Part shown: positions 17,774 to 40,600 of the stretch, piece after piece
Numbering within the stretch: position 1 is the first letter of the stretch
How the letters are laid out: every line of letters starts with the position of its first letter
Virus record (IMG/VR): IMGVR_UViG_3300012007_000011
Location: 64,155 to 127,383 of that record
Reading direction: 5' to 3' (one strand)
DNA length: 63,229 nucleotides
Source: a virus
Lineage: Duplodnaviria > Heunggongvirae > Uroviricota > Caudoviricetes
The notes under the pieces: model-generated
The model's input: the letters and a program-made list of their open reading frames with translations, nothing else
The model's database searches: none
What the model was told of the DNA's origin: nothing
Position numbers and translations under genes: made by a program

Positions 17774-17821
17774 TATTAAATTATTTATTTGCAAATATAC
17801 GTATTTTTCTTTAAATAGCCA

Positions 17822-17860
17822 AACATTATGTGTTAAAAAATATTAAAAACACATAATGTT
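17822..17860. repeat. Perfect 13-bp inverted repeat between dnaK and dnaJ
   Basis: AACATTATGTGTT-N13-AACACATAATGTT. Confidence 0.8.
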
Positions 17861-17872
17861 CAGCCTTAAAAA

Positions 17873-19813
17873 TTATACCTCTTCAACATCTTCAACATTT
17901 GTTTTGGTTTCTGTCTTCTGATTGTTTCCACTATTGAAAACATCATTAAAATTAGAATTTTTGAAATCAAAACCTTGTTGGCCAAAACCAAACGGATTTG
18001 AACCATTCTGTTGACCATTGGTGTAAACCCTTGAACCAACACTTGCAAGACGTTGATTAACCTCATTAATCAATTTGTCAGCATTTGCCAAATCACCATC
18101 ACGAACAGTTTTAAGTTCATTAATTTTGTTTTCAAAATAAGTTTTATCTTCCTCAGTAAGAATGTCCGTCTTATCCTTATAATCTTCGACAAATTTCTCA
18201 ACTTGATAAACTGTTCCGTCTATCTGATTCTGCTTATCAAGACGCTCTTTTGTTTTTGCATCCTCTGCTGCATGTTCCTCTGCCTCACGTTTAATTCTAT
18301 CAATTTCATCCTGTGACAAAGTATGTTTATTCTCAATTGTGATATGCTGTTCCTTACCAGTTGCATTATCTGTAGCACTAACCGAAAGAATACCATTAGC
18401 ATCAATATCAAACTTTACTTTAATTTGAGGAACACCTCTTCTTGCAGGTGCAATACCATCCAAATTGAATAGTCCAATTTGCTTATTATCTTTCGCCATT
18501 GGACGTTCACCTTGTAATACATTAATAGTTACTGCTGTCTGATTATCAACTGCTGTACTAAAAATTTGTTCTTTTGAACAGGGAATTGTTGTATTTGATT
18601 CAATCAATGTTGTCATAACACCACCCATAGTCTCAATACCAAGACCTAAAGGACATACATCGAGAAGCAGAATTTCACTATTTGTATTACCAGCAAGAAC
18701 ATCCGCTTGTATTGCAGCACCTTCCGCAACTGCAAGGTCGAGATTAGCACTCTTAATCAGTTTGTCACCAAAGTTTTTAACTAATTCATCTTGTACTTTT
18801 GGTATACGACAAGAACCACCGACAAGTAAAATACCATCCAAATCACTTGCATTTAAATTAGCCTTTTCAAGTGCTGTTTTACCACAATTAATTACTTTTT
18901 CAACAATTGGTGAAATAATTTGTTCAAACTTGGCTTTTGTAACGGTCATTGTTAAATGTTGTGGAGCATTATCCTTAACACAAATATAAGGAAGATTTAA
19001 TTCGCTGCTTGAACTGTTGGATAATTCTATCTTTGCTTTCTCAACTGCCTCATATATACGTGACATTGCCATTGAATCACTTGTCAAATCAATTCCGCTT
19101 TCCTCTTTATATGTAGCAACCACATAATTAGAAATAAGTTTATCAATATCACTACCACCAAGATAAACATCGCCATAAGAAGCAAGAATTTCTACAACAT
19201 TATCAGATACATCAGCAACCGAAAAATCCAGAGTCGAACCACCAAAATCCACAACAAGATATTTACCATCTTTCTTTTTGTCAATATTAGAAGCAAGTAA
19301 AGCGGCTGTTGGTTCTGAAATAATACGAAGTACATTCAAGCCAGCAAGTTCGCCCGCTTGTTTTGTTGCACTTTTTGCAGCATCACTGAAAAATGCAGGA
19401 ACGGTAATAACAGCATCTGTGACATCACTTCCAAGATAGTCTTCTGCAATTTTTTTCATTTTTGTCAAAATCATTGCAGACAATTCCTCAGGCGAATATT
19501 TTCTTCCGTTAACTAAAATACGTGGAAGACCATTGTCATTTACAACATCATACTGTACGTGTTTAATTGCATCTTGTACCTCATCATAAGTTCCACCCAT
19601 AAACCTCTTTATAAGATTAATAGTTTCCTTTGGTGAAACAACCATTTGTCTCTTTGCTGAATTTCCAATCTTTGGATTACCTTCTTTAAGAGAAATGACG
19701 GAAGGTGTTGTATAACTACCTTCCTCATTTGCAATCACACTTGGTTTACCACCCTCAATTACACTTACTTCACTAAGTGTGCTACCAAGGTCAATTCCTA
19801 TTGCTTTACTCAT
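17873..19813 (-). CDS. dnaK: Chaperone DnaK/Hsp70
   Basis: [41 protein letters not shown]. Confidence 0.97.
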
Positions 19814-19825
19814 AATTTCTTTAAA

Positions 19826-20308
19826 TTAAAATAACTTCTTTATATTATTCAATTTATTAGTAAGTTCTTTATTTTTATGAATGAGACTTTCCAAATCGTT
19901 ATTTTGTTTCTCAATTGTTAACTCATTATCACGATTATAATCCTTAAGATGTTTAATAGTCTCATTTTTCTTTTCAATTTCTTTAAGCAAACGTTCATTT
20001 TCTGCCTTCAATTCTCTAATCTGTCTCTCTGTATTGAACTGTTTGTTTTCTTGATTTTCAATTGCCTTATTTTCACCCTGTTTAACTGTAAGACAATTAT
20101 CATTGATGTCTTTAATTACTTTACCATCTTTTACCTCTTTTTCCTTATGAAGAACATGTTTACCGTCTTCATACTCATCTTCGATTGCATGGAAATAAGA
20201 TTTACCATCATTTTCTGCATTGTTTTTCTTTTCAAAATCTTTCATTTTCTCAGCGAACTTTTCCCAATCAATATCGCCAAAAAGTTCATTAAAAAGTGTT
20301 TCAAACAT
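19826..20308 (-). CDS. Hypothetical coiled-coil protein upstream of dnaK
   Basis: ORF with C-terminal heptads; first gene after a promoter near 20355. Confidence 0.65.
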   Translation of the reverse strand: MFETLFNELFGDIDWEKFAEKMKDFEKKNNAENDGKSYFHAIEDEYEDGKHVLHKEKEVKDGKVIKDINDNCLTVKQGENKAIENQENKQFNTERQIRELKAENERLLKEIEKKNETIKHLKDYNRDNELTIEKQNNDLESLIHKNKELTNKLNNIKKLF

Positions 20309-20369
20309 AACTTAAACTATTTTTTATTAATTTATTTTCTAATATACTATATACAAATAACATGCCAAA

Positions 20370-22526
20370 TTACATATTTAATATTGCATCATGATAAAAT
20401 TTCTCATTACGGCCTGTAATTTTGACAGTATCTGACACTTTGTCATATATTTCTTTCATTTTATCTTTTGGCATTGCTGAATTTTCGCACAAATATATTG
20501 CGCTTTCTTTCAACATTTTCTTCCATTCTTCTGCTTGCAATGTGTGAAATACTTCCAACTCAGACTGTTCAATAATATCACGAATTTCCTTATTAATGTA
20601 ATTTTGATTATCTTCATTAAGCAAAAATCCAAAGTTGTCATCCGGTGCATCAGTATTAGTGGTAACGCTTGTATTATTTCCCATTCCAAACCTTCTTACC
20701 AATCTTGAAGCAAGTTGTGTTGCACGATACAAATCATTTGAAGCACCGCTTGTCATTTGTTCGCCAAATACAACCTTTTCTGCAACATAGCCACCTAAAA
20801 GAACTTGTATTTCATTAAGCATATCTTTTTTGGAAATCTTCCTTTTGGAATTATCAATGTCTTCCATCATAAAACCACCGGTATTAGTATCCGTAGTTCT
20901 TGAAACAAGTTTTTCTGGCAATTTGTTAAACAACTTGGCGTACATAACAAAATGTCCACTCTCATGCAAAGCACATAATGCTTGTTCCTCATCATTAATG
21001 TCACTGTCTCTAAGTTTCTTTAACCTTAACTTAATTTCAAATTTAATATCACTGATAGCAAACCCATGTATATCATACAAATTTATAACAATTAAGTTTG
21101 TCTCATCATTGAATGTGTATTGAATTTTGTAAACTCTATCTTTAAGATTATTTTCACAAATATACCTTATAATATTTGGAAACCTACTCTTAACAATTTC
21201 GTGTACTGTTGAAAATATTGGTCTTGTCCCATGAGTAGGATATACACCCTCTTCATATATAATTTTCTTAATTGTATCATCAAATGACAATTCATATCCA
21301 CTTAATTCAAAAGCCTCTTTCTTATAAGCATTAAGCGATAAATCTATGATATCCTTAAAGTTTTGTTCAGAAAAAGACGGATAAATAACATGAATATTTC
21401 CCAAACGAGCAATCTGTTCATTTCTGAAACGTCTTTTTAGTGCATCCTTAATATCAACAATACTTATTTTTTCTGTTATTTTCCTAAATTGGTCAGGTGA
21501 CATATCAGGATTTACATTGAAACTCATTTCATATGCTTCATCCAAATTACCTATAACAAATATAATACTGTCATTGAACTTTAAGTCATATCCCTTTCTT
21601 GCATTTTCATACACCAAAGAAATAAATTCCATCAATTCATCATAATTCATTTTTTCCAACTTATGATAAACTTCTATCTTATCAGAAATTTTACCTGTTG
21701 TTGTATCATATAAATCAATTATTTTTTCAAGATAATATTCTTTAATAAAAAATGGTAAAATAGTCTTTTCTTCATTTAAAATATCACCCTTTAATGATTG
21801 TTCTTCACCATTTTCAATAATATTTTGTTTTAATATTTTATTTTTGGGTGTTGTTTCCTTTATTTTATTTGTATCATATTCAAAATTAAACACTTCACTA
21901 AACTTCTGAATATCATATGGTTTAAAATATGACAAACATTCATCAGCGTTAACCCAAACACCATTTTTGATTTCCATTTGATTCTTTATGCTGATTTTAA
22001 CCATATACTCTATTACTTTAAGAGGCAATCTAACATTCCAAAACTCACCCCTTTTATGTAATAAACCACTATCCAATAACTCCCAAAATGGTTTTAAACC
22101 ACTCTTATTATCTCTTTCCTCACCTGTTTTTGGATTAATGGTTGCTGCATATTGGAACTCATCATATACAAACATACGATTGCTCTTTTCATTTGATAAT
22201 TCTTCTTCTATCTGATTCTCTATCTCCCAAGAAGAACTCTCACTTATGGAAGCAAAATTAAAATAAACATAATCTTTTTCAATATCAAGCAACTGTGAAA
22301 TTCTTTTAACTAAACTTGTTTTGCCAATACCAGACATTCCAAATAGATTGACAACCAACGGTCTAACTTGCAATTGTGGATATATGTACCAAGTACGTAC
22401 ATTGTCCATAATTTCATCAATCTGTTTATCTATACCAACAAATTCTTTTTTCAAAATAATGATAGCATTATCAACTATCTTATTCTTACTTTCAATTTCT
22501 TGAATATTTATTTTTTTGTTTACCAT
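20370..22526 (-). CDS. AAA+ ATPase fused to FtsH-like peptidase M41, no transmembrane segment
   Basis: Walker A GMSGIGKTS, Walker B MFVYDEF, HESGH, LLGGYVAE, GASNDL; start moved to MVNKKI. Confidence 0.8.
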   Translation of the reverse strand: MVNKKINIQEIESKNKIVDNAIIILKKEFVGIDKQIDEIMDNVRTWYIYPQLQVRPLVVNLFGMSGIGKTSLVKRISQLLDIEKDYVYFNFASISESSSWEIENQIEEELSNEKSNRMFVYDEFQYAATINPKTGEERDNKSGLKPFWELLDSGLLHKRGEFWNVRLPLKVIEYMVKISIKNQMEIKNGVWVNADECLSYFKPYDIQKFSEVFNFEYDTNKIKETTPKNKILKQNIIENGEEQSLKGDILNEEKTILPFFIKEYYLEKIIDLYDTTTGKISDKIEVYHKLEKMNYDELMEFISLVYENARKGYDLKFNDSIIFVIGNLDEAYEMSFNVNPDMSPDQFRKITEKISIVDIKDALKRRFRNEQIARLGNIHVIYPSFSEQNFKDIIDLSLNAYKKEAFELSGYELSFDDTIKKIIYEEGVYPTHGTRPIFSTVHEIVKSRFPNIIRYICENNLKDRVYKIQYTFNDETNLIVINLYDIHGFAISDIKFEIKLRLKKLRDSDINDEEQALCALHESGHFVMYAKLFNKLPEKLVSRTTDTNTGGFMMEDIDNSKRKISKKDMLNEIQVLLGGYVAEKVVFGEQMTSGASNDLYRATQLASRLVRRFGMGNNTSVTTNTDAPDDNFGFLLNEDNQNYINKEIRDIIEQSELEVFHTLQAEEWKKMLKESAIYLCENSAMPKDKMKEIYDKVSDTVKITGRNEKFYHDAILNM

Positions 22527-22589
22527 ATTCACTATTTTTATTATTACGTTTACAAATATAATACAATTTCTCAATATTACCAAAATTTG

Positions 22590-24835: not shown

Positions 24836-25120
24836 TTATTTTTCTTCCGGTACCTTTAGCAAAATTTCATTACCGTTTACTTTCATTTTCATTCTTTTGC
24901 TACTACAGACACCATTATTATCAACACTAACAACATACAAATCCCCATTTGGTGCTTTGCATACATTACTAAAACCATTTAATTCACTTATAGGAGTTTT
25001 TCCATCACCAACGAAAAATTCATTTGTATCATATCCATAAGCAAGTTCACCGTCAGAAGGTATAAACTTACTGCCACTTCCCTTATTATGTCCTCTTTTT
25101 ACAAAAACCTTCATTTCCAT
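24836..25120 (-). CDS. Small protein with Mtd-N/hyaluronidase-N-like motif
   Basis: PSDGELAYGYDTNEFFVGDGKTPISEL. Confidence 0.55.
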   Translation of the reverse strand: MEMKVFVKRGHNKGSGSKFIPSDGELAYGYDTNEFFVGDGKTPISELNGFSNVCKAPNGDLYVVSVDNNGVCSSKRMKMKVNGNEILLKVPEEK

Positions 25121-25156: not shown

Positions 25157-25181
25157 AATACCAGCCGTTAAGGCTGGTATT
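25157..25181 (-). terminator. Hairpin terminator closing the Y-RNA triplet
   Basis: AATACCAGCC-gttaa-GGCTGGTATT. Confidence 0.6.
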
Positions 25182-25217
25182 CTTAATACATATTGGAACA
25201 AAATTATAAACCTAAAA

Positions 25218-25349
25218 ATGAGGGAAAATTATTAAGAGAGACAAACATGTAATAACATGCCGAATCGGAATCGAACCGATAATCTAAAACTTAAAAGGTT
25301 TTTGCTTTATCCATTAAGCCATCGAAGTAACTCTTAAACCGCCACTCAT
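25218..25349 (-). ncRNA. Y-RNA-like element Y1 with tRNA-Lys(UUU)-like cargo
   Basis: AUGAG/CUCAU stem, UGGCGG loop, UUAAGAG/CUCUUAA stem, UUACUUCG, then D arm, AAAAC-CUUUUAA-GUUUU, T arm AUCGG-UUCGAUU-CCGAU. Confidence 0.7.
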
Positions 25350-25360
25350 GTATATTTTAA

Positions 25361-25496
25361 AAACCGAAGAATAATAAGAAGTCTAAAACTATAAATGTTT
25401 AAGTTGGACTTGAACCAACAATCTTAATTTCCCATAAATTACGTCTTTACCATTTTGACTATTAAACGAAGTAAGACTATCTTCCGCTATCGGTTT
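25361..25496 (-). ncRNA. Y-RNA-like element Y2 with tRNA-like cargo (UGG loop)
   Basis: AAACCGA/UCGGUUU, UAGCGG, AAGAUAGUCU/AGACUUCUU, UUACUUCG, D arm, UAAUU-UAUGGGA-AAUUA, GUUGG-UUCAAGU-CCAAC. Confidence 0.7.
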
Positions 25497-25517
25497 GTTT
25501 GTTTTTATTTATTAAAA

Positions 25518-25602
25518 ATCAGAGAAAAACATTCAGACTATAATCTAATACTATAAAAACCCATTCTTTATCATTCGAAGTAAGTCTGAAACCACTACTG
25601 AT
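25518..25602 (-). ncRNA. Y-RNA-like element Y3, minimal; identical to 33460-33544
   Basis: AUCAG/CUGAU, UAGUGG, UUCAGACU/AGUCUGAA, UUACUUCG, AU-rich loop. Confidence 0.7.
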
Positions 25603-25606
25603 TTCT

Positions 25607-26362: not shown

Positions 26363-26373
26363 AATATGTTATG

Positions 26374-26457
26374 CTCGCAGAGTGCGATTCGAACACACGG
26401 TAGCAATGCTACGGCAGTTTTGGAGACTGCTGGGTTAAACCACTCCCCCATCTGCGA
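26374..26457 (-). tRNA. tRNA with CCA (Trp) anticodon and long variable arm
   Basis: UCGCAGA/UCUGCGA, GCAGU-CUCCAAA-ACUGC, variable arm GUAGC-AUU-GCUAC, G73. Confidence 0.85.
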
Positions 26458-26463
26458 ATGTTT

Positions 26464-27180
26464 TTATAAACCTAAATATTTTTTTAATTCTTGTTTCTTT
26501 GTTGGTAAACCATAATGGGCAAACCATTTGGTTATTGCTTTGTCTGATACATTATATAACTTACCAACACCCCTAAAACTACCAACTTCTTTAAAAATTT
26601 CACACAACGTTTCTTTTGAAGGATGATTTTTAGACCATCTATTTTCTAAAAAAGTCAGCCATTTTTCTTTTTCTATGTGTTTTTTAGAAATATTATTAGA
26701 ATAAGTTGTTGTTTTCTCTTTATTAGCATTTTTACCCGCATATGTATCTGTTTGACTGTGGCAATTAGGACATAGTAATTGTAAATTTTCCAATCTATTG
26801 TCATGGTGATTACCATTAATGTGATGTAATTGCAATGATATTGGTTTTCCATGCCATTCTGATAACCCACATTCTGGATTTTCACATTTATATTTTTTAA
26901 TACCCTCTTTAATTAATCTTTCTTTGAGTCTATTTGTGCTTTTATATGAACTATTTTCCACTAAAATATCCTTTAAGTCCATTGGTGGATTATTTTTATT
27001 CCAATAAACTTTCTTATATGAAAAAACTAATTCAATGCCCAACTCTTTTGCTAAATTACGCACTTCCTTATAATCTTCACCACCAACATTTTTAATCCCC
27101 ATTCTATGACAAAGGTCTAACATATTAACACATTTGTCAGCATTCTCAATAAGTTTATCTATTGCGTATTCACGTTTCAT
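26464..27180 (-). CDS. HNH endonuclease (free-standing, homing-type)
   Basis: CENPECG..LQLHHINGNHHDNRLENLQLLCPNCHSQT; start moved to MKREYA. Confidence 0.9.
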   Translation of the reverse strand: MKREYAIDKLIENADKCVNMLDLCHRMGIKNVGGEDYKEVRNLAKELGIELVFSYKKVYWNKNNPPMDLKDILVENSSYKSTNRLKERLIKEGIKKYKCENPECGLSEWHGKPISLQLHHINGNHHDNRLENLQLLCPNCHSQTDTYAGKNANKEKTTTYSNNISKKHIEKEKWLTFLENRWSKNHPSKETLCEIFKEVGSFRGVGKLYNVSDKAITKWFAHYGLPTKKQELKKYLGL

Positions 27181-27284
27181 ATCTATAATCCTTTTTATTA
27201 TAAATATTACGTAAATTTCAAAAATCGAACTTATTTGGAAAATTATTTTGGTTCGATTTACCAATTAAAACTATCTATTTAAAA

Positions 27285-27545
27285 AGCCTACAAGTTGTCA
27301 TCTTATAGGCCAAACTTTCACAACGATGAAAGTAAAAAGTGGTTGGTTTACCTTTAGTCTCCACTTAAACCACAGAGAAATTTGAGACTGTCTATGTATT
27401 ACTTTTGTCACAGACAACAAATGTCGTTTATAACACCCAAACAACATTCAAAACGTTTCTTTTTAAGGATGCAAGAAAATAACCTCACTTTGTTTACAGA
27501 TAAAGTTACGAAATACATTATCCACGTCTTTCCGTGCTGTCAGAC
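27285..27545 (-). ncRNA. Candidate structured RNA or trailer downstream of tRNA-Ala, ending in a terminator
   Basis: Starts GUCUGACAGCACGGAAAGACGUG; ends GCCUAUAAG/CUUGUAGGC-UUUUU. Confidence 0.35.
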
Positions 27546-27547
27546 TG

Positions 27548-27620
27548 TGGACCGTATCGGATTCGAACCGCAAATCTTCCGTGCAAGGGAAGTGTGTTAG
27601 CCAATTACACCATACAGCCC
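27548..27620 (-). tRNA. tRNA-Ala(TGC)
   Basis: Cloverleaf, CU-UGC-AC loop, G3:U70. Confidence 0.9.
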
Positions 27621-27643
27621 ATTTAAACGAATATTAAGCCATG

Positions 27644-27717
27644 TACCCCCAGTAGGATTCAAACCTACAACTTTCAGATTAGAAGTCTGATACTCTATTC
27701 AGTTGAGTTATAGGGGC
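27644..27717 (-). tRNA. tRNA-Arg(TCT)
   Basis: UCAGA-CUUCUAA-UCUGA. Confidence 0.9.
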
Positions 27718-27719
27718 TT

Positions 27720-28679
27720 TTAATTAACACAATATAATTTGTCTATTTTTTCATTGTATCTATAAAATTTACATTTTAATTCATTTATTATTTGTTTCTG
27801 TCTTTTTATATCTTTCTCTTTCAATATGTTATTATAAACATCTTTATAATGTTTCGGTTCATCATATTCAAAAGCAATATTTAGTTGTTCATCATAACCA
27901 TCTAGAAAGAAGCCACAAACTTGTTTTTCTCCACCATTTTCTGCATGTATTAAATTCCATCCATTTTTACTATTCAAAAAATCAATATATTTGCATGCAT
28001 TCTTTGAATAGTGTTGTCCAAAATCTCCATTACCATTCTTTTTAATATATTCAATCATTTTTTCACGCAATATTTGTTTTGTTTCTTCTGTGTGTGGTTT
28101 GCCATTAATCTTGAATTTTCCGTCTTCAAAAGATTTTTTACGTGTTTCCGTTTGTTTCAATATTCTAACATCATCTTTTGCTGTTTTTCCTTTGTTCCAT
28201 ATTGTATGTCCGTTTGCATTTCCACCGTTTCCTTTCCGATTTGGACATTTTGTTCTATTTGGATTTTCACAACATGCTTCTTCGTGTATTGCTAAACAAC
28301 CAGGATTTTTTACTTTTTTTCCACAAAATCTACATGAATATTCTGATGTATCATTGTGAATATGTTCTCTGGCATTTTTTGTATTCTCAAGATTGGCAAT
28401 ATACTTCGGATTCTTTTTACAATATGTTACATGACCCCCCAATTTATATTTATTATCAAAAACTTTGCCACAATACTTACAAACATATTTTGGTTTTTCA
28501 TAACTGTAAAATTGTTTTGTTTTCTTATCTATAATTTGTATACCTAACTTAATAGCAATTTTCTTTATGTGACTTCCTCTTTTTATACCGTATAAATCGG
28601 CAATTGTTTGATAAGGAACTCTTTTTTCTATTAAGGCACGCAAATTATCTTTTTCGTTTTGCCAATTAATTCTATGCAT
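27720..28679 (-). CDS. Zinc-finger/NUMOD-type PD-(D/E)xK endonuclease (homing-type)
   Basis: CKYCGK/CRFCGK, IWNKGKT, KPHTEETKQ, FLDGYD..IAFEYDEPKH. Confidence 0.75.
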   Translation of the reverse strand: MHRINWQNEKDNLRALIEKRVPYQTIADLYGIKRGSHIKKIAIKLGIQIIDKKTKQFYSYEKPKYVCKYCGKVFDNKYKLGGHVTYCKKNPKYIANLENTKNAREHIHNDTSEYSCRFCGKKVKNPGCLAIHEEACCENPNRTKCPNRKGNGGNANGHTIWNKGKTAKDDVRILKQTETRKKSFEDGKFKINGKPHTEETKQILREKMIEYIKKNGNGDFGQHYSKNACKYIDFLNSKNGWNLIHAENGGEKQVCGFFLDGYDEQLNIAFEYDEPKHYKDVYNNILKEKDIKRQKQIINELKCKFYRYNEKIDKLYCVN

Positions 28680-28755
28680 ATTAATAACTATATTTCCTAT
28701 TTATTTATAAATATCAACAATAAGTGTAAAATACATCTTTAATTCAAAAAAATTG

Positions 28756-28785
28756 ACCTTGTTCTATCCATTGAACTATCGGAAG
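28756..28785 (-). pseudogene. tRNA 5'-half remnant
   Basis: CUUCCGA UA GUUC AAUGGAUA GAAC AAGGUC with no T arm or 3' acceptor strand. Confidence 0.55.
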
Positions 28786-28933
28786 AAATTTTGTTTTCAG
28801 GCATGAAACAATAACCGGTTTTATATTCTCGCCATATTCCTTTAACGAGCAATTCGTATCTTTTCAGGGATTGCCACCTCTTGATATGTTACCACATCAA
28901 GTTGTACCTTTTATTATTAGGTAGGCACTGACC

Positions 28934-29278
28934 TTATCTGTTCATTAGTCTTCTGTATGCCTCGTCATAACCCTCCATGAATCCTTTTTTCCATTCATCA
29001 AGATTCTCGTTCACGGGTTGTTTCTTTTCAACAAGATTGCCATTGATAAGCACTGACCTGTCTAATTTTTCATTGACTTTCTTCATAGCATCAATTCGTT
29101 CTTGACCGCCAATTCTTCTAATGAAGGCATCCATATCCAAAGCTTCATACTCACCTACTTTATCATTGACTTCCTTATGAAATTTCTTCTCATCTTCCTT
29201 GAACCTTTGCAGAACCTCTTCATCAGTTAGAGATTCATCATTAAGTTGCTTCTTGTAATCTTCCAATAAACTACCCAT
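28934..29278 (-). CDS. Hypothetical protein
   Basis: 114-aa ORF with typical composition. Confidence 0.65.
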   Translation of the reverse strand: MGSLLEDYKKQLNDESLTDEEVLQRFKEDEKKFHKEVNDKVGEYEALDMDAFIRRIGGQERIDAMKKVNEKLDRSVLINGNLVEKKQPVNENLDEWKKGFMEGYDEAYRRLMNR

Positions 29279-29307
29279 AATATCAAAACGTTTTATATTT
29301 TATTTTG

Positions 29308-29389
29308 TGCTCACGAAGGGATTCGAACCCATACGCCTTACGACACTTGGTCCTTAGCCAAGCCTGTCTACCATTTCCAGCACGTGAGC
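29308..29389 (-). tRNA. tRNA-Leu(AAG)
   Basis: CUUGG-CUAAGGA-CCAAG, class II variable arm, A73. Confidence 0.85.
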
Positions 29390-29395
29390 AAATTG

Positions 29396-29470
29396 TACTC
29401 CCAATGAGATTCGAACTCATATCTTTGCCTTGAGAGGGCAACCACCTAAACCGATTAGTATGATGAGAGC
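29396..29470 (-). tRNA. tRNA-Glu(CTC)
   Basis: UUGCC-CUCUCAA-GGCAA. Confidence 0.85.
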
Positions 29471-29579
29471 ATATAAAAGGTTGGAACTCTTGCAAGATAA
29501 TCACTGTACCCCTCTTTTCGGTCCTCCAACTTAATGGCAACCCCTACTTATACTCATACATGATTAAATTCCAACTTTG

Positions 29580-29657
29580 TACTCCAAGTAGGACTCGAAC
29601 CTACACCCGAAGACTTGATTTTGAATCAAGCGTGTCTACCAATTCCACCATTGGAGC
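29580..29657 (-). tRNA. tRNA-Leu(CAA)
   Basis: CUUGA-UUCAAAA-UCAAG. Confidence 0.9.
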
Positions 29658-29836
29658 ATTACACATTCTCTACATAGGATTTCCTTTTTTAAAGAGCAAC
29701 TGCAATAATCTCTTCCTATGGTCATTGAAAATGCTTTTAATATGGTTTTAGTTTGAACATCAATTGTAGTACTACTTGATATTTTCAATATACTATACAC
29801 TCCGAAAACTCATATCTTAAATGTGTGCAGTATTCG

Positions 29837-29907
29837 TTGGGTTATCCGGATTCGAACCGAAACTAACAGAACCAAAATCTGTGGTGCTACCATTACACCA
29901 TAACCCA
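29837..29907 (-). tRNA. tRNA-Gln(TTG)
   Basis: ACAGA-UUUUGGU-UCUGU. Confidence 0.9.
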
Positions 29908-29949
29908 TTGTAAATCAATAATTTACAAAAGTTTGTTAAAGTAAATCTG

Positions 29950-30036
29950 CGGAGAGCAGTGGAGTCGAACCACACCCATGTTACTGAGCGAAGCAGGTTA
30001 GCAATCTGTCCCTATCACCGTCAAGGTTTACTCTCC
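29950..30036 (-). tRNA. tRNA-Ser(GCT), weak anticodon stem
   Basis: UU-GCU-AA loop, long variable arm, G73; two mismatches in the anticodon stem. Confidence 0.75.
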
Positions 30037-30040
30037 AAAG

Positions 30041-30113
30041 TACCCCGAAAAGGAATCGAACCCTTACCGTGACATCCGTAGTGTCGTATTCTAATCCGTT
30101 AAACTACCGGGGC
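30041..30113 (-). tRNA. tRNA-Arg(ACG)
   Basis: GACA-CUACGGA-UGUC. Confidence 0.9.
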
Positions 30114-30128
30114 ATCTATCCTTTCTTG

Positions 30129-30219
30129 CGGAAGTAGAGGGACTCGAACCCCCACACCGTTATTCACGATTACTAGCGGTTTTCAAGACCGCTGCCTTAC
30201 CAATTAGGCTTATACTTCC
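30129..30219 (-). tRNA. tRNA-Ser(TGA)
   Basis: GCGGU-CUUGAAA-ACCGC, long variable arm. Confidence 0.9.
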
Positions 30220-30790
30220 TTGTACGGGAATTTGTTTAATTGTTTCTCCAAAGTTTATCCCGAAACTACTCTCTGGATATTTGGGTGCGACCCAACCTCC
30301 GTTTTTGTATACTGAATGAGCCTAAAATGAAATTCTTGCAAGAATATTGATGATTCGAACACCTACCTAGTACAATTGCTAGATACCCCATTGCCATCGA
30401 GGAATATAATTTCAAATTAGACATTTATAACTTATCCTCTCCCCTTATTACCATCACTTCTGTAGAGAGTTTACCCGCCCGATATAAGTCATTTTGCTCA
30501 GTATATAATATGTGTCGTTATTTCTCTAACATATAAAAATGAAAGGTCAACCGTATTCCCTTTCGTGTACCGATAAGTTTTTCATTGTGTTCAAGGCACA
30601 CAACTGCGCAAGCAACGAGGGCGGTATTTCAACTTAAACCTCAGTCAGACGGAAATAAATAGCATATAGATAGGACGTTTTTTAGGACTTTCACCTATAG
30701 TTTTATACTTTTCAGATTTCGCTGAAACATCACCATTGATTCAAGGTGTGAACCCTGTGCAGAATTGTTAAACAGTAATTATTGTTTTAC
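30220..30790 (-). ncRNA. Probable ROOL large ncRNA (boundaries approximate)
   Basis: About 570-nt ORF-free structured tract between tRNAs, with GAUGUUUCAGCGAAAUCUGAAAAGU near the 5' end and GGAGGUUGGGUCGCACCC..AUCCAGAGAGUAGUUUC near the 3' end, matching ROOL sequences as I recall them. Confidence 0.6.
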
Positions 30791-30859
30791 GGCTACTGCA
30801 TTTTGCCAACCTATCATTCTCGGGTTAAACGTTTTTGCATATACTATTGTTTTAAAAAG

Positions 30860-30933
30860 GGTGACGTGTTGGATTCGAACCAACGTAAACAAGTGCCACA
30901 AACTTGCGCTTAAGCCACTCAGCCAACGTCACC
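30860..30933 (-). tRNA. tRNA-His(GTG)
   Basis: CAAGU-UUGUGGC-ACUUG, G-1:C73. Confidence 0.9.
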
Positions 30934-30948
30934 ATATTATTAGATATG

Positions 30949-31019
30949 TGTACCCACTGGGAATCGAACCCAGGTCACGTGATTAAAAGTCACGGGCTTT
31001 ACCCCTAAGCTATGAGTAC
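30949..31019 (-). tRNA. tRNA-Lys(TTT)
   Basis: CGUGA-CUUUUAA-UCACG. Confidence 0.9.
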
Positions 31020-31025
31020 AAAAAG

Positions 31026-31099
31026 CGGAACGTGGGAGATTCGAACTCCGAACTTCACTGTGACAGAGTGATATGTTAGCCAATTACACTACACGCTCC
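31026..31099 (-). tRNA. tRNA-Asp(GTC)
   Basis: UCACU-CUGUCAC-AGUGA. Confidence 0.9.
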
Positions 31100-31110
31100 A
31101 TTATTTTTTG

Positions 31111-31184
31111 TGGTCACGGACAGACTTGAACTGCCGACCCCCATCTTATCAGGATGGTAATCTAACCAACTGATATACGTGACC
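31111..31184 (-). tRNA. tRNA-Ile(GAT)
   Basis: CCAUC-CUGAUAA-GAUGG. Confidence 0.9.
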
Positions 31185-31284
31185 ATTATATAAATGAGGG
31201 TTTCTTGCTATTTACTACCCACAAATGTCAACGACACCCAATTATTCCTTAAATGTTCTCCCGGCTTTCGTTCTTGGAGCCCAG

Positions 31285-31370
31285 TAGCCGAAGCGGGACT
31301 CGAACCCGCACAGGCATTACTGCCCCTCAGATTTTAAGTCTAATGTGTCTACCGGTTCCACCATTCGGCC
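31285..31370 (-). tRNA. tRNA-Leu(TAA)
   Basis: UUAGA-CUUAAAA-UCUGA, class II. Confidence 0.9.
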
Positions 31371-31372
31371 AA

Positions 31373-31690
31373 CTATTTATCAAAATACATATATTCAAAA
31401 TTTTCGTTAATTGGTGCATTTTTACTGATTAAATCTGTTCTTTTAATCTTCCTACCTAATGCCTTTTCCATACATTCATAGCATAAATATAAATGTTCTT
31501 CATCTTTATGTTTAGCCCTCAAACCACTTCTATAATAATGTTCGATAAACTTATTATGTGCTTCCCTTTCATAATTTTCCAAACCATAAAAATGAACAAC
31601 TTCTTCCCACTTTTTGTCTTTTAACATTGGAGATTGACAATCTCCATAAATGAATTTTCTTCCACAAACCTTACATTGACATCTACCCAT
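31373..31690 (-). CDS. Hypothetical Cys-containing protein inside the tRNA array
   Basis: CQCKVC..CYEC; start moved to MGRCQC because the longer start overlaps tRNA-Thr. Confidence 0.65.
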   Translation of the reverse strand: MGRCQCKVCGRKFIYGDCQSPMLKDKKWEEVVHFYGLENYEREAHNKFIEHYYRSGLRAKHKDEEHLYLCYECMEKALGRKIKRTDLISKNAPINENFEYMYFDK

Positions 31691-31716
31691 AATATTAAAC
31701 CTTTTAATTATTTTTG

Positions 31717-31788
31717 AGCCGGTGATGGGGGTCGAACCCACAGCCTACTGATTACAAATCAGTTGCACAACCATCGTGCTCCACCGGC
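31717..31788 (-). tRNA. tRNA-Thr(TGT)
   Basis: ACUGA-UUUGUAA-UCAGU. Confidence 0.9.
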
Positions 31789-31800
31789 AAATTTATCTTG

Positions 31801-31873
31801 TGGGAAGGGGTGGAATCGAACCACCATAGCCAGATTTTCAGTCTGGTGCATTGACCAACTTTGCTACCTTCCC
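31801..31873 (-). tRNA. tRNA-Phe(GAA)
   Basis: CCAGA-CUGAAAA-UCUGG. Confidence 0.9.
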
Positions 31874-31875
31874 AA

Positions 31876-32058
31876 TTGTACGTTTTGATAAGGAGAACGT
31901 ACAAACTCATCTCGGATTGTATATAATGTCCTTATTGAAATTCTTGCAAGATTACCCTTGGCAGTGTTCCAATACACGTTATTATTCCGGACTGACTCTG
32001 ACCTTAACCGAACCAAAGATAAATTTCAACTTGAACACCCTTCCAAATCCCTTTATCT
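31876..32058 (-). ncRNA. Candidate structured RNA sharing motifs with the ROOL tract and 34035-34140
   Basis: UGUUCAAGUUG ... CUUGCAAGAAUUUCA; terminal UUGUACGUU/AACGUACAA hairpin. Confidence 0.45.
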
Positions 32059-32074
32059 ATTTTTTTTTTCTATG

Positions 32075-32145
32075 AGTTCCCTATTGGAGTTGAACCAATC
32101 TGAACGGTTTTGCAGACCGCTACCTAACCGCTCGGTCAAGGAAAC
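32075..32145 (-). tRNA. tRNA-Cys(GCA)
   Basis: GCGGU-CUGCAAA-ACCGU, U73. Confidence 0.9.
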
Positions 32146-32252
32146 AAAAAATGTCTGCTACAAACGATAGACGCACGTCTCACAGACTATGATGGTTAGC
32201 CGAAGCCTTATTAAGTGTTGCGCACCACACCACCAAGACTTTAATTATTGTG

Positions 32253-32327
32253 TACTCCCTGGGAGACTCGAACTCCATCATTTCTGCCGTGAAAGGGCAA
32301 CGTCCTAACCTATTAGACGAAGGGAGC
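32253..32327 (-). tRNA. tRNA-Glu(TTC)
   Basis: UUGCC-CUUUCAC-GGCAG. Confidence 0.9.
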
Positions 32328-32339
32328 ATCTATAAAGAT

Positions 32340-32760
32340 AAAAACAATGTCTCGGCTAAAATAAATTCTTATGACGAATTAATTACTGCATTGTAGTTTG
32401 TGGCTAAGAATTGCGTTGTCACAACTGCCCTTCCTGAATTTATGGTATTGGGCATATTCGGTTTTACAAACCGATAAAACTTAATTCCAATTTCCGCTTG
32501 TACTGTCGGAACTTACAGTAATTACATCACAACAGGTATCAATACTCAGAATGTGAAGGAAACTTAAATAACCATTTCAGATTACTTTAAATCAAGAATG
32601 TTTGCAACCATTCAAGTCACATTATGTGAGATAAACACCTTTACCCTGTTGCTCTTCGTTTGGGTATTTAGAATGCCCTTGGCCAATTCTACCGCATTCT
32701 ATCTTGAATCCTCTGTACCTGCGGATTCTTCCCAATTGAAACCACTGTCCTTAATCTTTA
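32340..32760 (-). ncRNA. Candidate large structured RNA (about 420 nt)
   Basis: Serial hairpins GAAUCC/GGAUUC, GAAUGC/GCAUUC, UCACAU/AUGUGA, GAAUG/CAUUC, UACUGU/ACAGUA, UCGGUUU/AAACCGA. Confidence 0.45.
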
Positions 32761-33544: not shown

Positions 33545-33558
33545 ATGCTGTAAAAAAT

Positions 33559-33710
33559 AACAGAGGACATCTAAAAAAACTGAAGACTTTTATAAATTCT
33601 TTTTGCCAAGAACTGCGTATACCATTTCGCCAAATTTCTGATTTTATGGTAGAAATTATCGGATTCGAACCGATATTATATTCGAAGTAAGTTTTTTTAC
33701 CACTACTGTT
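33559..33710 (-). ncRNA. Y-RNA-like element Y5 with circularly permuted tRNA domain (YrlA-type order T, acceptor, D)
   Basis: AACAG/CUGUU, UAGUGG, UAAAAAAAC/GUUUUUUUA, UUACUUCG, AUCGG-UUCGAAU-CCGAU, AUUUCU-ACCA..AGAAAU, GCG-AAAUGGUAUA-CGC. Confidence 0.75.
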
Positions 33711-33722
33711 ATATTCTTTTAG

Positions 33723-33806: not shown

Positions 33807-33942
33807 AAACCGAAGAATAATAAGAAGTCTAATTTTAAAGATAAATGTGGGACTCGAACCCACGATTTTAAGTACCCAAAAAACTTACGTATTAACCACT
33901 ATACAAATTCATCGAAGTAAGACTATCTTCCGCTATCGGTTT
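33807..33942 (-). ncRNA. Y-RNA-like element Y6, Y2 scaffold with a different tRNA-like cargo
   Basis: Ends identical to Y2; cargo GUAU-AGUGGUUA-AUAC, UAAGU-UUUUUGGGU-ACUUA, GUGGG-UUCGAGU-CCCAC. Confidence 0.7.
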
Positions 33943-38782: not shown

Positions 38783-40456
38783 CTAAATCTCAATTGCTTC
38801 AATTTCTTTGATGATAGCGTCCCAACCTCGGCACTGAGACTTGATAGTGTCAAAAATTTTGTCACTCCAACCAGCAATGTTAAGGATTCGCTGTGACTTG
38901 TCGAATACACTCGTTCCGCCACTCTGACGAATATTTACCACAATGAAGTTGGCATTCGGATTAATTTTTCTGAACTCTTTGAAAAGTTCATGGAAATGCT
39001 CACTTTTTTCGCCATATGTATGTCCATACCAAGCGGTAAATGGGCCACCACGTCCAATCTGACAATCTGAGAAGACAATAATATTGTCAATCTTCTTTCT
39101 TTCCTTTACAACATTCTCAAGGAATGTGTAAATACCCGCTTCAGTTGCACCTCCGCAACGTCCACCAATCTCATATGATTCCTTATTGAAATCAAGGAGT
39201 TTCACATTACGCTTGTAAGGTACTTGGATAAGTCTGTCACCGAACAAACCAACATACACATCATGCTGTCTCCAAGCCATCATGCTTGCGAACAAATGCG
39301 CAATCATTGAAGAATTAGTTTTGCTGAATGCAGAGACACGTGAATGTCCACCAGCATCACCACGCATAGAACCGCTATCATCTACAAGGATTGCACAATT
39401 ACCATCCAATACAGGAATGTTCTGGCAAGCAATCTCAATGGCCGTCTCAATTGCATCAAGCAAGTTCTTCTTCAGTTCATTAAACTTACTCTCACTAACT
39501 TGCTGCTTTGACTCTTCGCTCTCAAAGACAATACTGGTTGTCGGCTTTGTCTTTGTATCAGCATACATTACCTTCTCAATCTCAGCGTAAGCGGTTGCGA
39601 AGCGGAATGGAAGAAGCCTTGAATTGAGAATCTTCTTTTCAATTGTCAGTTGCTCACAAGCATCATTCACCTTATCAGGAGCATATAAGAGAATGTTTCT
39701 GAGGTTGCGAAGCAGGTTCATAACAGGCATACCCTTAACATTGTCAAGAACTGCTGTAATTGCCTCACGCTTTGCCTCCATCTTTTCTTCCTGTGTAGCA
39801 TCCTTTGTTGTCTGTCCTGCCTTAGTCATTTCCTTTTCAAGAACCTTGCTCTCATAAAGGTCTGCAAGACTTTCACCGTTTACCAGACGCTTGTATGCCT
39901 CTGCATTCTTCTGATTACCCTTTGGGTGGAAAAGACGCACAAGGTCAATAAGTGAAACCTCACGATTCTGCATCTTATACTTGTCAATCTGATAAGCATC
40001 AAGACGTTCCAATGCCTCCTTGAAGCCTTTCTTGATTGAATTTGGAATCTTCTTAAGGTCATTAAGTCCCATTCCATTAAGGTTAGCATATGCTGACACG
40101 ATTTCACTCATGTCATCCGGACGCACAACGATTCGGTTATAGAAACGCTTACCCCAATCAGTACCACCAACATACTTTGCAAGCAATGCAGATACAAGGT
40201 GAGTTACTGAACGAAGATTACCCTCGTTACGTGCATAGATTGCCAACTTAGCAGCAAACAGTGGGTCAACCTTATCAACAAGGTCTGTAATGCGCTTAAC
40301 AATCTCACCCTCTCGCTCATAGTATGAGTTCTGCAAAAATGTAGTCATTACAGTTGACACCAACAACTCCTTATCTGCCAACTTAAATGCCATCTCACCC
40401 ATGTAGTTCACTTCTGTTGGCTTAACACTCTCTTTCTTTGAATTGTACTTTCCCAT
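38783..40456 (-). CDS. rsr: Ro60/TROVE-domain ribonucleoprotein with vWA domain
   Basis: N-terminal NYMGEMAF..KELLV, AIYARNEGNLRSV, ALLRNLRN-like NLLRNLRN, LLPFRF, MIDAS LVDDSGSM, IIVFSDCQ, IAGWSD. Confidence 0.9.
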   Translation of the reverse strand: MGKYNSKKESVKPTEVNYMGEMAFKLADKELLVSTVMTTFLQNSYYEREGEIVKRITDLVDKVDPLFAAKLAIYARNEGNLRSVTHLVSALLAKYVGGTDWGKRFYNRIVVRPDDMSEIVSAYANLNGMGLNDLKKIPNSIKKGFKEALERLDAYQIDKYKMQNREVSLIDLVRLFHPKGNQKNAEAYKRLVNGESLADLYESKVLEKEMTKAGQTTKDATQEEKMEAKREAITAVLDNVKGMPVMNLLRNLRNILLYAPDKVNDACEQLTIEKKILNSRLLPFRFATAYAEIEKVMYADTKTKPTTSIVFESEESKQQVSESKFNELKKNLLDAIETAIEIACQNIPVLDGNCAILVDDSGSMRGDAGGHSRVSAFSKTNSSMIAHLFASMMAWRQHDVYVGLFGDRLIQVPYKRNVKLLDFNKESYEIGGRCGGATEAGIYTFLENVVKERKKIDNIIVFSDCQIGRGGPFTAWYGHTYGEKSEHFHELFKEFRKINPNANFIVVNIRQSGGTSVFDKSQRILNIAGWSDKIFDTIKSQCRGWDAIIKEIEAIEI

Positions 40457-40516
40457 ATTCGTTACACTATTTAATTTGTTATTAAAAGAAATTAACTAAC
40501 TCTCATTTGAAATTTA

Positions 40517-40596
40517 ATCAGAGAAAAACATTCAGACTGTTATCAATTTTTTAAGCCTGTTCATAATATCGAAGTAAGTCTGAAACCACTACTGAT
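40517..40596 (-). ncRNA. Y-RNA-like element Y7 in the leader of the Ro60 gene
   Basis: Scaffold ends identical to Y3/Y4 with a different loop; 60 nt upstream of the ATG. Confidence 0.75.
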
Positions 40597-40600
40597 TTGA

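What the first reader, a model, noticed from the sequence alone, without database searches (positions are those of the whole stretch)
25218..25349. Y1 carries a tRNA-Lys(UUU) anticodon stem-loop: possible decoy for anticodon nucleases
Seen in sequence: the cargo has a canonical D arm, AAAAC-CUUUUAA-GUUUU and a canonical T arm. Its acceptor stem is short and continues into the scaffold, so it has no free 3' end and cannot be aminoacylated. The loop CUUUUAA is identical to that of the real tRNA-Lys at 30949. Established: tRNA-Lys(UUU) is the target of PrrC and of PARIS AriB. Inference: a non-chargeable, Ro60-stabilised sponge for anti-phage anticodon nucleases.
Basis: partly seen in the sequence, partly recalled or inferred. 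Interest (0 to 1): 0.75.

Follow-up and report, generated by a model that had tools for sequence, protein, structure and literature searches.

The report
Phage Y-RNA displaying lysine anticodon arm
A giant gut/rumen phage encodes a small RNA that is a lysine-tRNA look-alike locked into the handle shared by the likely partner RNAs of its Ro60 protein, so it cannot carry an amino acid. Related phages keep the body but swap the anticodon letters, which fits, but does not prove, a bait for tRNA-cutting defence enzymes.

Summary
At 25217-25350 (minus strand) lies a 134-nt RNA with a complete tRNA core: D arm, anticodon arm with the Lys(UUU) loop, and T arm. This core sits inside a two-stem scaffold shared by six other elements in the window. 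The acceptor is only a 4-bp helix that runs into the scaffold, so Y1 is not a chargeable tRNA. The scaffold family covaries strongly. It co-occurs with Ro60 (TROVE) genes even in phage contigs that were found through the RNA motif alone.

Close orthologues occur in seven contigs as four sequence variants. Three variants keep UUU and one has GUU (Asn) on the same stem. In the wider class the anticodon varies (Lys, Asn, Gly, Leu, Cys, Gln, Ile, Arg) while the bodies stay under strong purifying selection. In one pair the element is 98% identical, its flanks are 66-84% identical, and both differences lie in the anticodon.

The decoy reading is plausible (about one in three) but untested. The general idea was already floated for YrlA in 2020. 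What is new is the topology: the scaffold joins at the acceptor end and the anticodon arm is intact and switchable. Published YrlA lacks an anticodon loop.

This scan has already noted similar anticodon-arm mimics on Ro60-partner RNAs in other phages.

Verdict: a new variant of a known kind.

The parts
25217..25350 (-). Y1: whole scaffolded RNA (134 nt)
   Evidence: Full-length match to covariance model R1, 167 bits; stem detection
25256..25328 (-). tRNA-like core of Y1 (D arm, anticodon arm, T arm, 4-bp acceptor-like helix)
   Evidence: Rfam tRNA 56.2 bits; ARAGORN tRNA-Lys(ttt)
25291..25297 (-). 7-nt anticodon loop; anticodon UUU at 25293-25295; stem strands at 25298-25302 and 25286-25290
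   Evidence: the stem covaries across the class (helix 5)
25260..25263 (-). 3' strand of the 4-bp acceptor-like helix; pairs with 25322-25325, which is part of the invariant UUCG motif
   Evidence: helix 3
25246..25259 (-). Small 3' hairpin between the acceptor-like helix and the inner stem
   Evidence: Compensatory changes among orthologues (helix 7)
25331..25337 (-). Inner scaffold stem, 5' strand; pairs with 25232-25238
   Evidence: helix 2: all 7 pairs show compensatory change
25342..25349 (-). Outer scaffold stem, 5' strand, with bulged U at 25344; pairs with 25218-25224
   Evidence: helix 1
25362..25495 (-). Y2: sibling scaffold RNA with Pro(UGG)-like cargo; A at loop position 33; 6/7 acceptor
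   Evidence: 47 bits, full length
25517..25603 (-). Y3: sibling scaffold RNA with plain hairpin cargo; a copy lies at 33459-33545
25157..25181 (-). Intrinsic-terminator-like hairpin plus U run, just downstream of Y1
   Evidence: also present after the Y1 orthologue in L293
25616..25623 (-). TAnnTTTG motif (Bacteroidota-type -7 box, from my own knowledge) about 12 nt upstream of Y3; suggests one Y3-Y2-Y1 transcript
   Evidence: Sequence; conserved in L307; overlaps a sigma-70-like -10 hit
38783..40456 (-). Ro60 orthologue (557 aa, TROVE plus Ro60-type vWA)
   Evidence: Pfam TROVE 1.5e-19; PDB phage phiLo Ro60 9KOP/9L5Y at 5e-13 and Xenopus Ro 1YVP at 3.5e-4
40516..40597 (-). Scaffold RNA with hairpin cargo, 60 nt upstream of the Ro60 ORF on the same strand
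33808..33941 (-). Scaffold RNA with Gln(UUG) cargo and a full 7/7 acceptor
33558..33711 (-). Scaffold RNA with permuted cargo (T arm, closed acceptor stem-loop, D arm, anticodon-like arm)
30949..31019 (-). Ordinary phage tRNA-Lys(UUU): 7/7 acceptor, same 7-nt loop, different stem

Best explanation
Y1 is a small non-coding RNA, not a working tRNA. A conserved handle (outer stem, bulged U, URGYGR internal loop, inner stem, invariant UUACUUCG) holds a faithful tRNA body. That body has the elbow and a complete Lys(UUU) anticodon arm, but its acceptor is only a 4-bp helix fused to the handle. The handle is most likely the docking site for the phage's Ro60 protein, so Y1 would be a Y RNA of a new topology (inferred, about 0.75). 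Y1 is probably made as the last unit of a Y3-Y2-Y1 transcript, between a Bacteroidota-type promoter and a terminator (inferred). In the cell the Ro60-Y1 particle would present an authentic-looking but unusable tRNA-Lys anticodon arm to a factor that reads anticodons. The candidate I rank first is a host tRNA-cleaving defence nuclease. Y1 would occupy it as a competitive pseudosubstrate, while the phage's own tRNA array and RNA ligases keep translation going. Related phages retune the bait by changing only anticodon positions 34-36. Shown here: the anatomy, the family, the link with Ro60 genes, the lack of a chargeable end, and the anticodon switching. Inferred: Ro60 binding, the transcript, and the nuclease target (about 0.3-0.35).
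For: Anatomy, and non-chargeability:
- tRNA core at 56 bits; acceptor 4 bp plus mismatches.
- Positions 1-3 are unpaired in all orthologues.
- All 23 ordinary tRNAs in the window have 7/7 acceptors.

The family is real:
- 21 of 37 motif seeds close perfectly, against 1 of 370 shuffles.
- 98.2% of stem cells pair against 64% in shuffles; 34 of 37 pairs are compensatory.
- Ordinary tRNAs match only the core of the model.

Link to Ro60:
- A TROVE ORF lies in the window, with a sibling RNA 60 nt upstream of it.
- Siblings lie within 1 kb upstream of Ro60 in L001, L004, L009, L011, L013 and L016.
- 6 of 10 contigs found by the RNA motif alone carry a TROVE ORF; the other four are 5-31% complete fragments.
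- By contrast, only 61 of 50,697 phage records match this Ro60.

Anticodon identity matters:
- Bodies are 92-98% identical where flanks are 65-88% identical, and the differences concentrate in the anticodon.
- U33 is invariant and the wobble base is U or G in nearly all motif-verified members.
- Position 37 changes together with position 36: UGG/G37 to UGU/A37, and UUG/G37 to UUA/A37.
- Loops equal those of the phage's real tRNAs, including the non-trivial Gln and Glu loops.

Context:
- The genome carries 23 ordinary tRNAs, a CCA-adding enzyme, RlaP and two RNA ligases.
- tRNA-Lys is a known target of PrrC and AriB.
- Competitive inhibition of an anticodon nuclease by YrlA has been proposed in print (PMC7790460).
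Against: - No binding or cleavage data exist.
- A cleavable decoy cannot protect against a multiple-turnover nuclease unless it binds tightly or is repaired.
- The Y1 anticodon stem (four A-U pairs and one C-G) matches no cellular tRNA in 185,579 species genomes. T5 escapes AriB through stem-loop substitutions, so a nuclease that reads the stem may ignore Y1.
- The rate of anticodon change is roughly what the flank divergence predicts for unconstrained sites. The switching could therefore reflect relaxed constraint rather than an arms race.
- My pair-wise P values were computed on pairs picked because their anticodons differ.
- At least 15 different anticodons occur, more than any known set of nuclease targets requires.
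- Some siblings have perfect 7/7 acceptors, and one has an encoded CCA, which a pure decoy would not need.
- Y1 lies 13.4 kb from the Ro60 gene.
- No Rfam Y RNA or YrlA match at E up to 10.
Confidence: 0.35

Rival explanations
1. Generic Ro60 tether. Y1 works like YrlA: the tRNA-shaped body (elbow, D and T arms) recruits some tRNA-binding effector or an RNA-repair or RNA-decay enzyme to Ro60. The anticodon letters are a leftover of the tRNA gene from which the cargo arose and carry no specific meaning.
For: Published models see Ro60 with a tRNA-like partner as an RNA repair or decay platform (PMC7824862, PMC12135203). The same handle carries hairpins, YrlA-like cargo without an anticodon arm (L293), and tRNA-like cargo, so the anticodon arm is dispensable for at least some members. 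Anticodon change rates are near the flank divergence.
Against: Loop framework positions 32, 33, 37 and 38 are tightly kept, the wobble base is almost always U or G, and position 37 tracks position 36. This is not expected if the loop were meaningless. Everything else in the element is under strong purifying selection.
Confidence: 0.25
2. Bait for another anticodon reader. Y1 titrates or recruits an anticodon-loop modification enzyme (for example the t6A37 or xm5U34 machinery), lysyl-tRNA synthetase, or the ribosomal decoding site, and so reshapes host translation or tRNA modification rather than blocking a nuclease.
For: The features that are kept (U33, U/G at 34, purine 37 matched to base 36, the L-shape nucleotides) are those read by modification enzymes and synthetases. 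Salmonella YrlA is a substrate of tRNA modification enzymes (PMC4201824). Many within-lineage switches stay among NNU anticodons with A37, which is the t6A class by my own knowledge.
Against: There is no obvious benefit to the phage. The displayed anticodons duplicate tRNAs the phage already supplies. No data exist.
Confidence: 0.2
3. Stored precursor of a working tRNA-Lys. RNase P, RNase Z and the phage CCA-adding enzyme cut the cargo out of the handle when needed, as happens with Mycobacterium smegmatis YrlA.
For: M. smegmatis YrlA is cleaved by RNase P and receives CCA. The phage encodes a CCA-adding enzyme. Sibling cargos have 7/7 acceptors (33808-33941, L144, L175). The cr111_1 Gln cargo has a C1-A72 mismatch, G73 and an encoded CCA.
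Against: For Y1 itself only 4 acceptor pairs exist, and positions 1-3 are unpaired in every orthologue. Chen et al. tie RNase P cleavage to a 7-bp acceptor. An ordinary tRNA-Lys(UUU) already exists at 30949. The whole short-acceptor class shares this 4-bp design.
Confidence: 0.05
4. Decaying tRNA-Lys pseudogene that lies between chance inverted repeats.
For: The acceptor is imperfect and the anticodon stem is AT-rich.
Against: The element is 87-97% identical where flanks are 57-82% identical. There are compensatory changes in every helix. The family recurs in many phages with the same handle.
Confidence: 0.02

Closest known systems
YrlA, the tRNA-like Y RNA of bacteria and mycobacteriophages (Chen et al. 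2014, PMC4201824; Wang et al. 2018, bioRxiv 10.1101/312249)
   Same: A small RNA encoded with Ro60 on the same strand. Its 5' and 3' ends pair into a handle, a CGA(A)-type motif sits near the 5' side, and it has a tRNA-like module with genuine D and T arms and no free CCA end. Several Y RNAs occur per genome, some without the tRNA module (YrlB-like).
   Different: In YrlA the Ro60 stem takes the place of the anticodon stem, the acceptor is a closed stem-loop, and 'YrlA lacks the anticodon loop'. In Y1 the handle joins at the acceptor end and a complete 5-bp/7-nt anticodon arm is displayed. No Rfam YrlA or Y_RNA match was found. Permuted siblings such as 33558-33711 keep the YrlA order but add an anticodon arm.
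Proposal that YrlA competitively inhibits an anticodon nuclease (Hughes et al. 2020, Cell Rep, PMC7790460)
   Same: The same functional idea: a non-cleavable tRNA-like Y RNA domain competes with tRNAs for a tRNA-cleaving enzyme.
   Different: That was one sentence of speculation about a cellular Y RNA without an anticodon loop. Here the RNA is phage-encoded and carries a specific, switchable anticodon.
Phage tRNAs that resist or replace tRNAs cut by host nucleases (T5 tRNA-Lys against PARIS AriB; T4 Pnkp/Rnl1 repair against PrrC)
   Same: A phage countermeasure centred on the tRNA-Lys(UUU) anticodon loop. The same genome carries a large tRNA array and RNA ligases.
   Different: Those are functional, chargeable tRNAs or repair enzymes. 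Y1 cannot be charged and would act by occupancy, if at all.
Phage phiLo Ro60 with Yrl1/Yrl2 (NAR 2025, PMC12135203)
   Same: A phage Ro60 (the best PDB match to this ORF) with stem-bulge-stem partner RNAs carrying a CGAA motif, encoded next to the gene.
   Different: The passages I retrieved from the paper describe stem-bulge-stem RNAs with a CGAA motif and mention no tRNA-like or anticodon module. The proposed role there is hijacking host PNPase.

Membership tests
Functional tRNA | Cloverleaf core with D arm, 5-bp/7-nt anticodon arm, T arm and the conserved tertiary nucleotides | tested here: met
   Rfam tRNA 56.2 bits; ARAGORN Lys(ttt); U8, A14, G18-G19, U33 and the T-loop UUC are invariant in the class
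Functional tRNA | 7-bp acceptor stem with free ends that can receive CCA and an amino acid | tested here: not met
   4 pairs, then 2 mismatches. Positions 1-3 are unpaired in L301 and L307. Both strands continue into the scaffold. All 23 ordinary tRNAs in the window have 7/7
Y RNA (Ro60 partner RNA) | 5' and 3' ends pair into a stem interrupted by a bulge or internal loop | tested here: met
   Outer stem, bulged U, 2 bp, asymmetric loop, inner stem. 21/37 perfect closures against 1/370 shuffles; helices 1 and 2 have 13 of 14 pairs compensatory
Y RNA (Ro60 partner RNA) | Encoded together with a Ro60/TROVE gene, usually on the same strand | tested here: met
   Ro60 ORF at 38783-40456 on the same strand, with a sibling 60 nt upstream of it. 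TROVE is present in 6 of 10 contigs found by the RNA motif alone. Y1 itself lies 13.4 kb away
Y RNA (Ro60 partner RNA) | Ro60-binding sequence (metazoan GGUCCGA bulged helix; bacterial GNCGAAN0-1G / CGAA) | tested here: inconclusive
   UUACUUCG, usually followed by A, is nearly invariant, and a URGYGR loop is conserved. This resembles the published motifs but does not equal them
Y RNA (Ro60 partner RNA) | Physical binding to Ro60 | not testable with these tools
   Needs pull-down or gel shift
YrlA subfamily (Rfam RF02553 by name) | T arm, closed acceptor stem-loop, D arm; the Ro60 stem replaces the anticodon stem; no anticodon loop | tested here: not met
   Definition. Y1 has the normal tRNA order, an open acceptor fused to the handle and an intact anticodon arm. 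No Rfam hit other than tRNA at E up to 10
Anticodon-nuclease decoy / competitive inhibitor (functional class) | Presents the same anticodon stem-loop as the nuclease's tRNA target | tested here: inconclusive
   The 7-nt loop is identical to a genuine tRNA-Lys(UUU) loop. The stem matches no cellular tRNA in 185,579 genomes, and stems covary freely in the class
Anticodon-nuclease decoy / competitive inhibitor (functional class) | Binds or inhibits the nuclease and protects tRNA or phage growth | not testable with these tools
   Requires biochemistry or genetics

The most novel reading that the evidence does not exclude
Gut and rumen phages carry a panel of Ro60-docked RNAs that each display a genuine tRNA anticodon arm without a chargeable end. 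They retune the three anticodon letters between strains to neutralise whichever tRNA-cutting immune nuclease their host carries. This would be an RNA-based, programmable anti-defence system, and the first clear function for the tRNA-like part of a Y RNA.
Probability: 0.3. Interest if true: 0.9.

Novelty: new variant of a known kind. Interest (0 to 1): 0.68.

Why it matters
The function of the tRNA-like domain of bacterial and phage Y RNAs has been open since 2014. These phage RNAs add the one part that YrlA lacks, a real anticodon arm. They also show that evolution edits only the anticodon while freezing the rest. That turns a vague question into a testable one, because natural UUU and GUU versions of the same RNA exist for specificity experiments. 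If the nuclease-bait idea holds, it adds a new class of RNA counter-defence alongside resistant phage tRNAs and tRNA repair. It would also mean that several tRNA genes annotated in crAss-like and jumbo phage genomes (for example a tRNA-Gln of cr111_1) are not ordinary tRNAs.

Tried and rejected
- blastn of the Y cluster against 50,697 phage records found no match.
- An Rfam E-value search found only tRNA and noise, with no Y_RNA or YrlA hit.
I replaced it with longer patterns.
- Minimum-free-energy and RNAalifold folds did not recover the cloverleaf of this AT-rich core. I therefore tested my own structure through a covariance model and pair counts.
- A partner-swap control for stem closure was contaminated by paralogues that share stems. 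I replaced it with shuffles.
- A search for a cellular tRNA with the Y1 anticodon stem-loop found none.
- RtcB is absent from the 34%-complete genome record.
- The Annual Review on bacterial Ro60 (PMC10870794) is not held.
- Diversity-generating retroelement mutagenesis of the anticodon was suggested by a weak Mtd_N hit in the next ORF. I rejected it because the changes are not adenine-specific.
- Gene conversion from the phage's real tRNAs was rejected because the stems stay unchanged while only 1-3 loop letters differ.
- The tally of anticodons from the large model alignment A3 is contaminated by ordinary tRNAs with loosely aligned flanks. I used it only qualitatively.

Full report
**What is there.** All features lie on the minus strand. 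ARAGORN calls 25255-25329 tRNA-Lys(UUU) and 25395-25468 tRNA-Pro(UGG). These sit apart from a 24-gene tRNA array at 26373-34536. Rfam's tRNA model scores the Lys-like element 56.2 bits, inside the range of the other tRNAs. The model alignment shows a canonical D arm, a 5-bp anticodon stem with a 7-nt loop, and a canonical T arm. The acceptor is poor: four contiguous pairs next to the T stem, then two mismatches. The loop is identical to that of the ordinary tRNA-Lys at 30949-31019, while the stems differ. All 23 ordinary tRNAs in the window have 7/7 acceptor pairs; only Y1 and its neighbour Y2 do not. Outside the core, the flanks pair into an outer stem, a bulged U, two more pairs, an asymmetric internal loop and a 7-bp inner stem. 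A small hairpin lies between the acceptor-like helix and the inner stem.

**The scaffold is a family.** A regular expression for the two conserved 5' blocks (URGYGR and WUWCWUCG) finds seven elements in the window. All seven scaffold elements of the 127-kb genome record lie in the window. Their cargo differs:
- plain hairpins at 25517-25603, its copy at 33459-33545, and 40516-40597;
- tRNA-like cargo in normal order in Y1, Y2 and 33808-33941;
- a permuted cargo at 33558-33711.

I took 37 seeds defined by the 5' motif alone, from the window and from loci fetched through Ro60. Of these, 21 close with a perfect 14 of 14 scaffold pairs, against 1 of 370 shuffled controls. The closing seeds use 19 different outer-stem sequences. 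I built a covariance model from four Y1 orthologues with my structure. It finds Y1 at 167 bits and full-length class members in other phages at 53-71 bits. Ordinary tRNAs match only model positions 26-91. On the 17 best matches, 98.2% of stem cells pair against 64% in shuffles and 37-51% when partners are slid. Compensatory change is seen in 34 of 37 pairs, in all seven helices. This alignment was fitted to the model, which favours the structure. The shuffle test does not share that bias.

**Link to Ro60.** The ORF at 38783-40456 is a 557-aa TROVE protein (Pfam 1.5e-19). Its best solved relatives are the Thermus phage phiLo Ro60 and Xenopus Ro60. One scaffold RNA lies 60 nt upstream of it on the same strand. 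The same arrangement recurs in crAss-like phage cr111_1 and in IMG/VR relatives. As an independent test, I took ten IMG/VR records found only through the RNA pattern. Six encode a TROVE ORF of 484-552 aa, and the four that do not are 5-31% complete fragments. Ro60 relatives are rare in phages: 61 of 50,697 records. The nearly invariant UUACUUCG, usually followed by A, resembles the CGAA-type motif used to recognise bacterial and phage Y RNAs. It is not identical to that motif, and binding is inferred, not shown.

**Not a working tRNA.** In Y1 and its close orthologues only four acceptor pairs exist, and positions 1-3 never pair. The same design recurs in a wider short-acceptor class: the invariant UUCG pairs with CGAR directly after the T stem, usually followed by a small hairpin. 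Chen et al. found RNase P cleavage only for the one YrlA with a 7-bp acceptor. Y1 therefore almost certainly cannot be processed and charged. This conclusion does not extend to every sibling. The cargos at 33808-33941 and in L144, L175 and L183 have 7/7 acceptors. The cr111_1 Gln cargo has a C1-A72 mismatch, G73 and an encoded CCA.

**Is the Lys loop conserved?** A metagenome scan with the Y1 anticodon stem and three free anticodon letters returned six true-orthologue contigs (parsed).
- With the window that makes seven contigs and four sequence variants.
- Three variants carry UUU and one (L301) carries GUU (Asn) on the same stem and body.
- The 3' hairpin covaries among the variants.
- In the two related jumbo phages the equivalent element shows UUU (G001) and UCC (G002).
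- Elsewhere the short-acceptor class displays UAA, UAU, GCA and UUG.

Other orthologue groups also switch:
- GAU, UCU and UUU in cr111-like phages;
- UCU and GUU in L175/L197 against L183;
- UUG and UGG in G004 against G003;
- UUG and UUA in L174/L180 against L189.

The clearest case is L007 against L016. The flanks are 84% and 66% identical and the 122-nt element is 98.4% identical. Both differences are anticodon positions 34 and 35. Elements are in general much better conserved than their flanks.

**How to read the switching.** The P values are post hoc. The per-site rate of anticodon change is about what the flank divergence predicts for free sites. Positive selection is therefore not demonstrated. 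The loop is not drifting either:
- U33 is invariant in the class alignment;
- the wobble base is U or G in nearly all motif-verified members;
- position 37 changes with position 36, as in real tRNAs;
- the 7-nt loops equal those of the phage's own tRNAs, including the distinctive Gln and Glu loops.

The RNA thus appears to be selected to look like some genuine tRNA anticodon arm, and which one differs between strains.

**Mechanism.** The best-supported reading is a Ro60-docked, non-chargeable tRNA mimic that offers an anticodon arm to a protein that reads anticodons. I rank a host tRNA-cleaving defence nuclease first, at about one in three, for four reasons:
- tRNA-Lys(UUU) is a proven target of such nucleases;
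- the phage invests heavily in tRNA supply and RNA repair (and earlier notes of this scan);
- strain-level retuning of a specificity element is what a conflict with variable host nucleases predicts;
- the Wolin laboratory has already suggested competitive inhibition of an anticodon nuclease by YrlA.

Against it:
- there are no data;
- a cleavable bait is a poor defence against a catalytic enzyme;
- the anticodon stem of Y1 matches no cellular tRNA;
- the range of displayed anticodons is very broad.

The rivals are a generic tether whose anticodon is incidental, a bait for modification enzymes, a synthetase or the ribosome, a tRNA precursor (unlikely for Y1), and a pseudogene (excluded).

**Comparison with what is known.** Y RNAs with a tRNA-like domain next to Ro60, including in phages, are known. 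Jumbo-phage TROVE proteins with a tRNA-like partner have also been noted. Published YrlA, however, has the Ro60 stem in place of the anticodon stem, a closed acceptor and no anticodon loop. Y1 is the inverse: the handle joins at the acceptor and the anticodon arm is intact. I found no paper describing this topology or the anticodon switching. Earlier notes of this scan report similar anticodon-arm mimics on Ro60-partner RNAs in other phages. The phenomenon is therefore recurrent and is not unique to this window.

**Context.** The genome record is a 34%-complete jumbo phage from gut or rumen samples. Family members also sit in scaffolds binned to Prevotella and Paludibacteraceae. A TAnnTTTG box precedes Y3 and a terminator follows Y1. 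This fits a Bacteroidales host and a single Y3-Y2-Y1 transcript.

Noticed in passing
L189:1495-1630 (IMG/VR 3300037346_000623) versus L174 and L180: A scaffolded cargo with a near-perfect acceptor carries anticodon UUA with A37, where its orthologues carry UUG with G37. It looks like an ochre-suppressor derivative of a Gln-type cargo and may bear on stop-codon recoding in these phages.
   Followed up: partly
L001:18890-19019 (= MT774387.1, annotated tRNA-Gln at 79185-79260): The tRNA-Gln annotated next to the Ro60 gene of crAss-like phage cr111_1 is embedded in the same scaffold. It has a C1-A72 mismatch, G73 and an encoded CCA. It may be a real tRNA-Gln carried in a Y-type handle, or a mis-annotated Y RNA.
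   Followed up: partly
L293:2230-2377 versus window 25517-25603: The same scaffold stems (Y3 position) hold a YrlA-like cargo (T arm, closed acceptor, D arm, no anticodon arm) in the rumen relative and a plain hairpin in the window. Cargo is swapped within one handle.
   Followed up: partly
window 25362-25495 (Y2); L297:2804-2937; L307:2421-2552: The Y2 loop has A instead of U at position 33. Its orthologues show UGG/G37 (window, L293), UGU/A37 (L297, whose Y1 is identical to the window's) and UUC (L307).
   Followed up: partly
window 33459-33545 and 25517-25603: Two copies of the hairpin-cargo RNA, 8 kb apart, are identical apart from the first bases of the outer stem. One lies inside the tRNA array, the other at the head of the Y3-Y2-Y1 cluster.
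   Followed up: no
window 33558-33711; L144:1597-1743; L156; L157: Permuted cargos keep the YrlA order but add an anticodon-like arm, so the handle leaves the tRNA body at the variable-loop position. Orthologues differ in that loop (AAG against GCA; GUA against UUU).
   Followed up: partly
L317 (HF994194.1, Prevotella sp. CAG:1092 scaffold, 118 kb): At least five full-length matches to the Y1 model lie within 8 kb of a scaffold binned to Prevotella. This is probably a related phage, and a hint at the host.
   Followed up: no
window 24836-25120 (-): The 94-aa ORF just downstream of the Y cluster has a sub-threshold match to the N-terminal domain of the Bordetella phage tropism determinant Mtd (23.8 bits, cut-off 26.3).
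   Followed up: no
window 3026-4453, 6874-8214, 16703-22583: The same window encodes a CCA-adding enzyme with an HD domain, an RlaP-family nucleotidyltransferase (RNA-repair-associated), and DnaJ, DnaK and an FtsH-like AAA protease.
   Followed up: no
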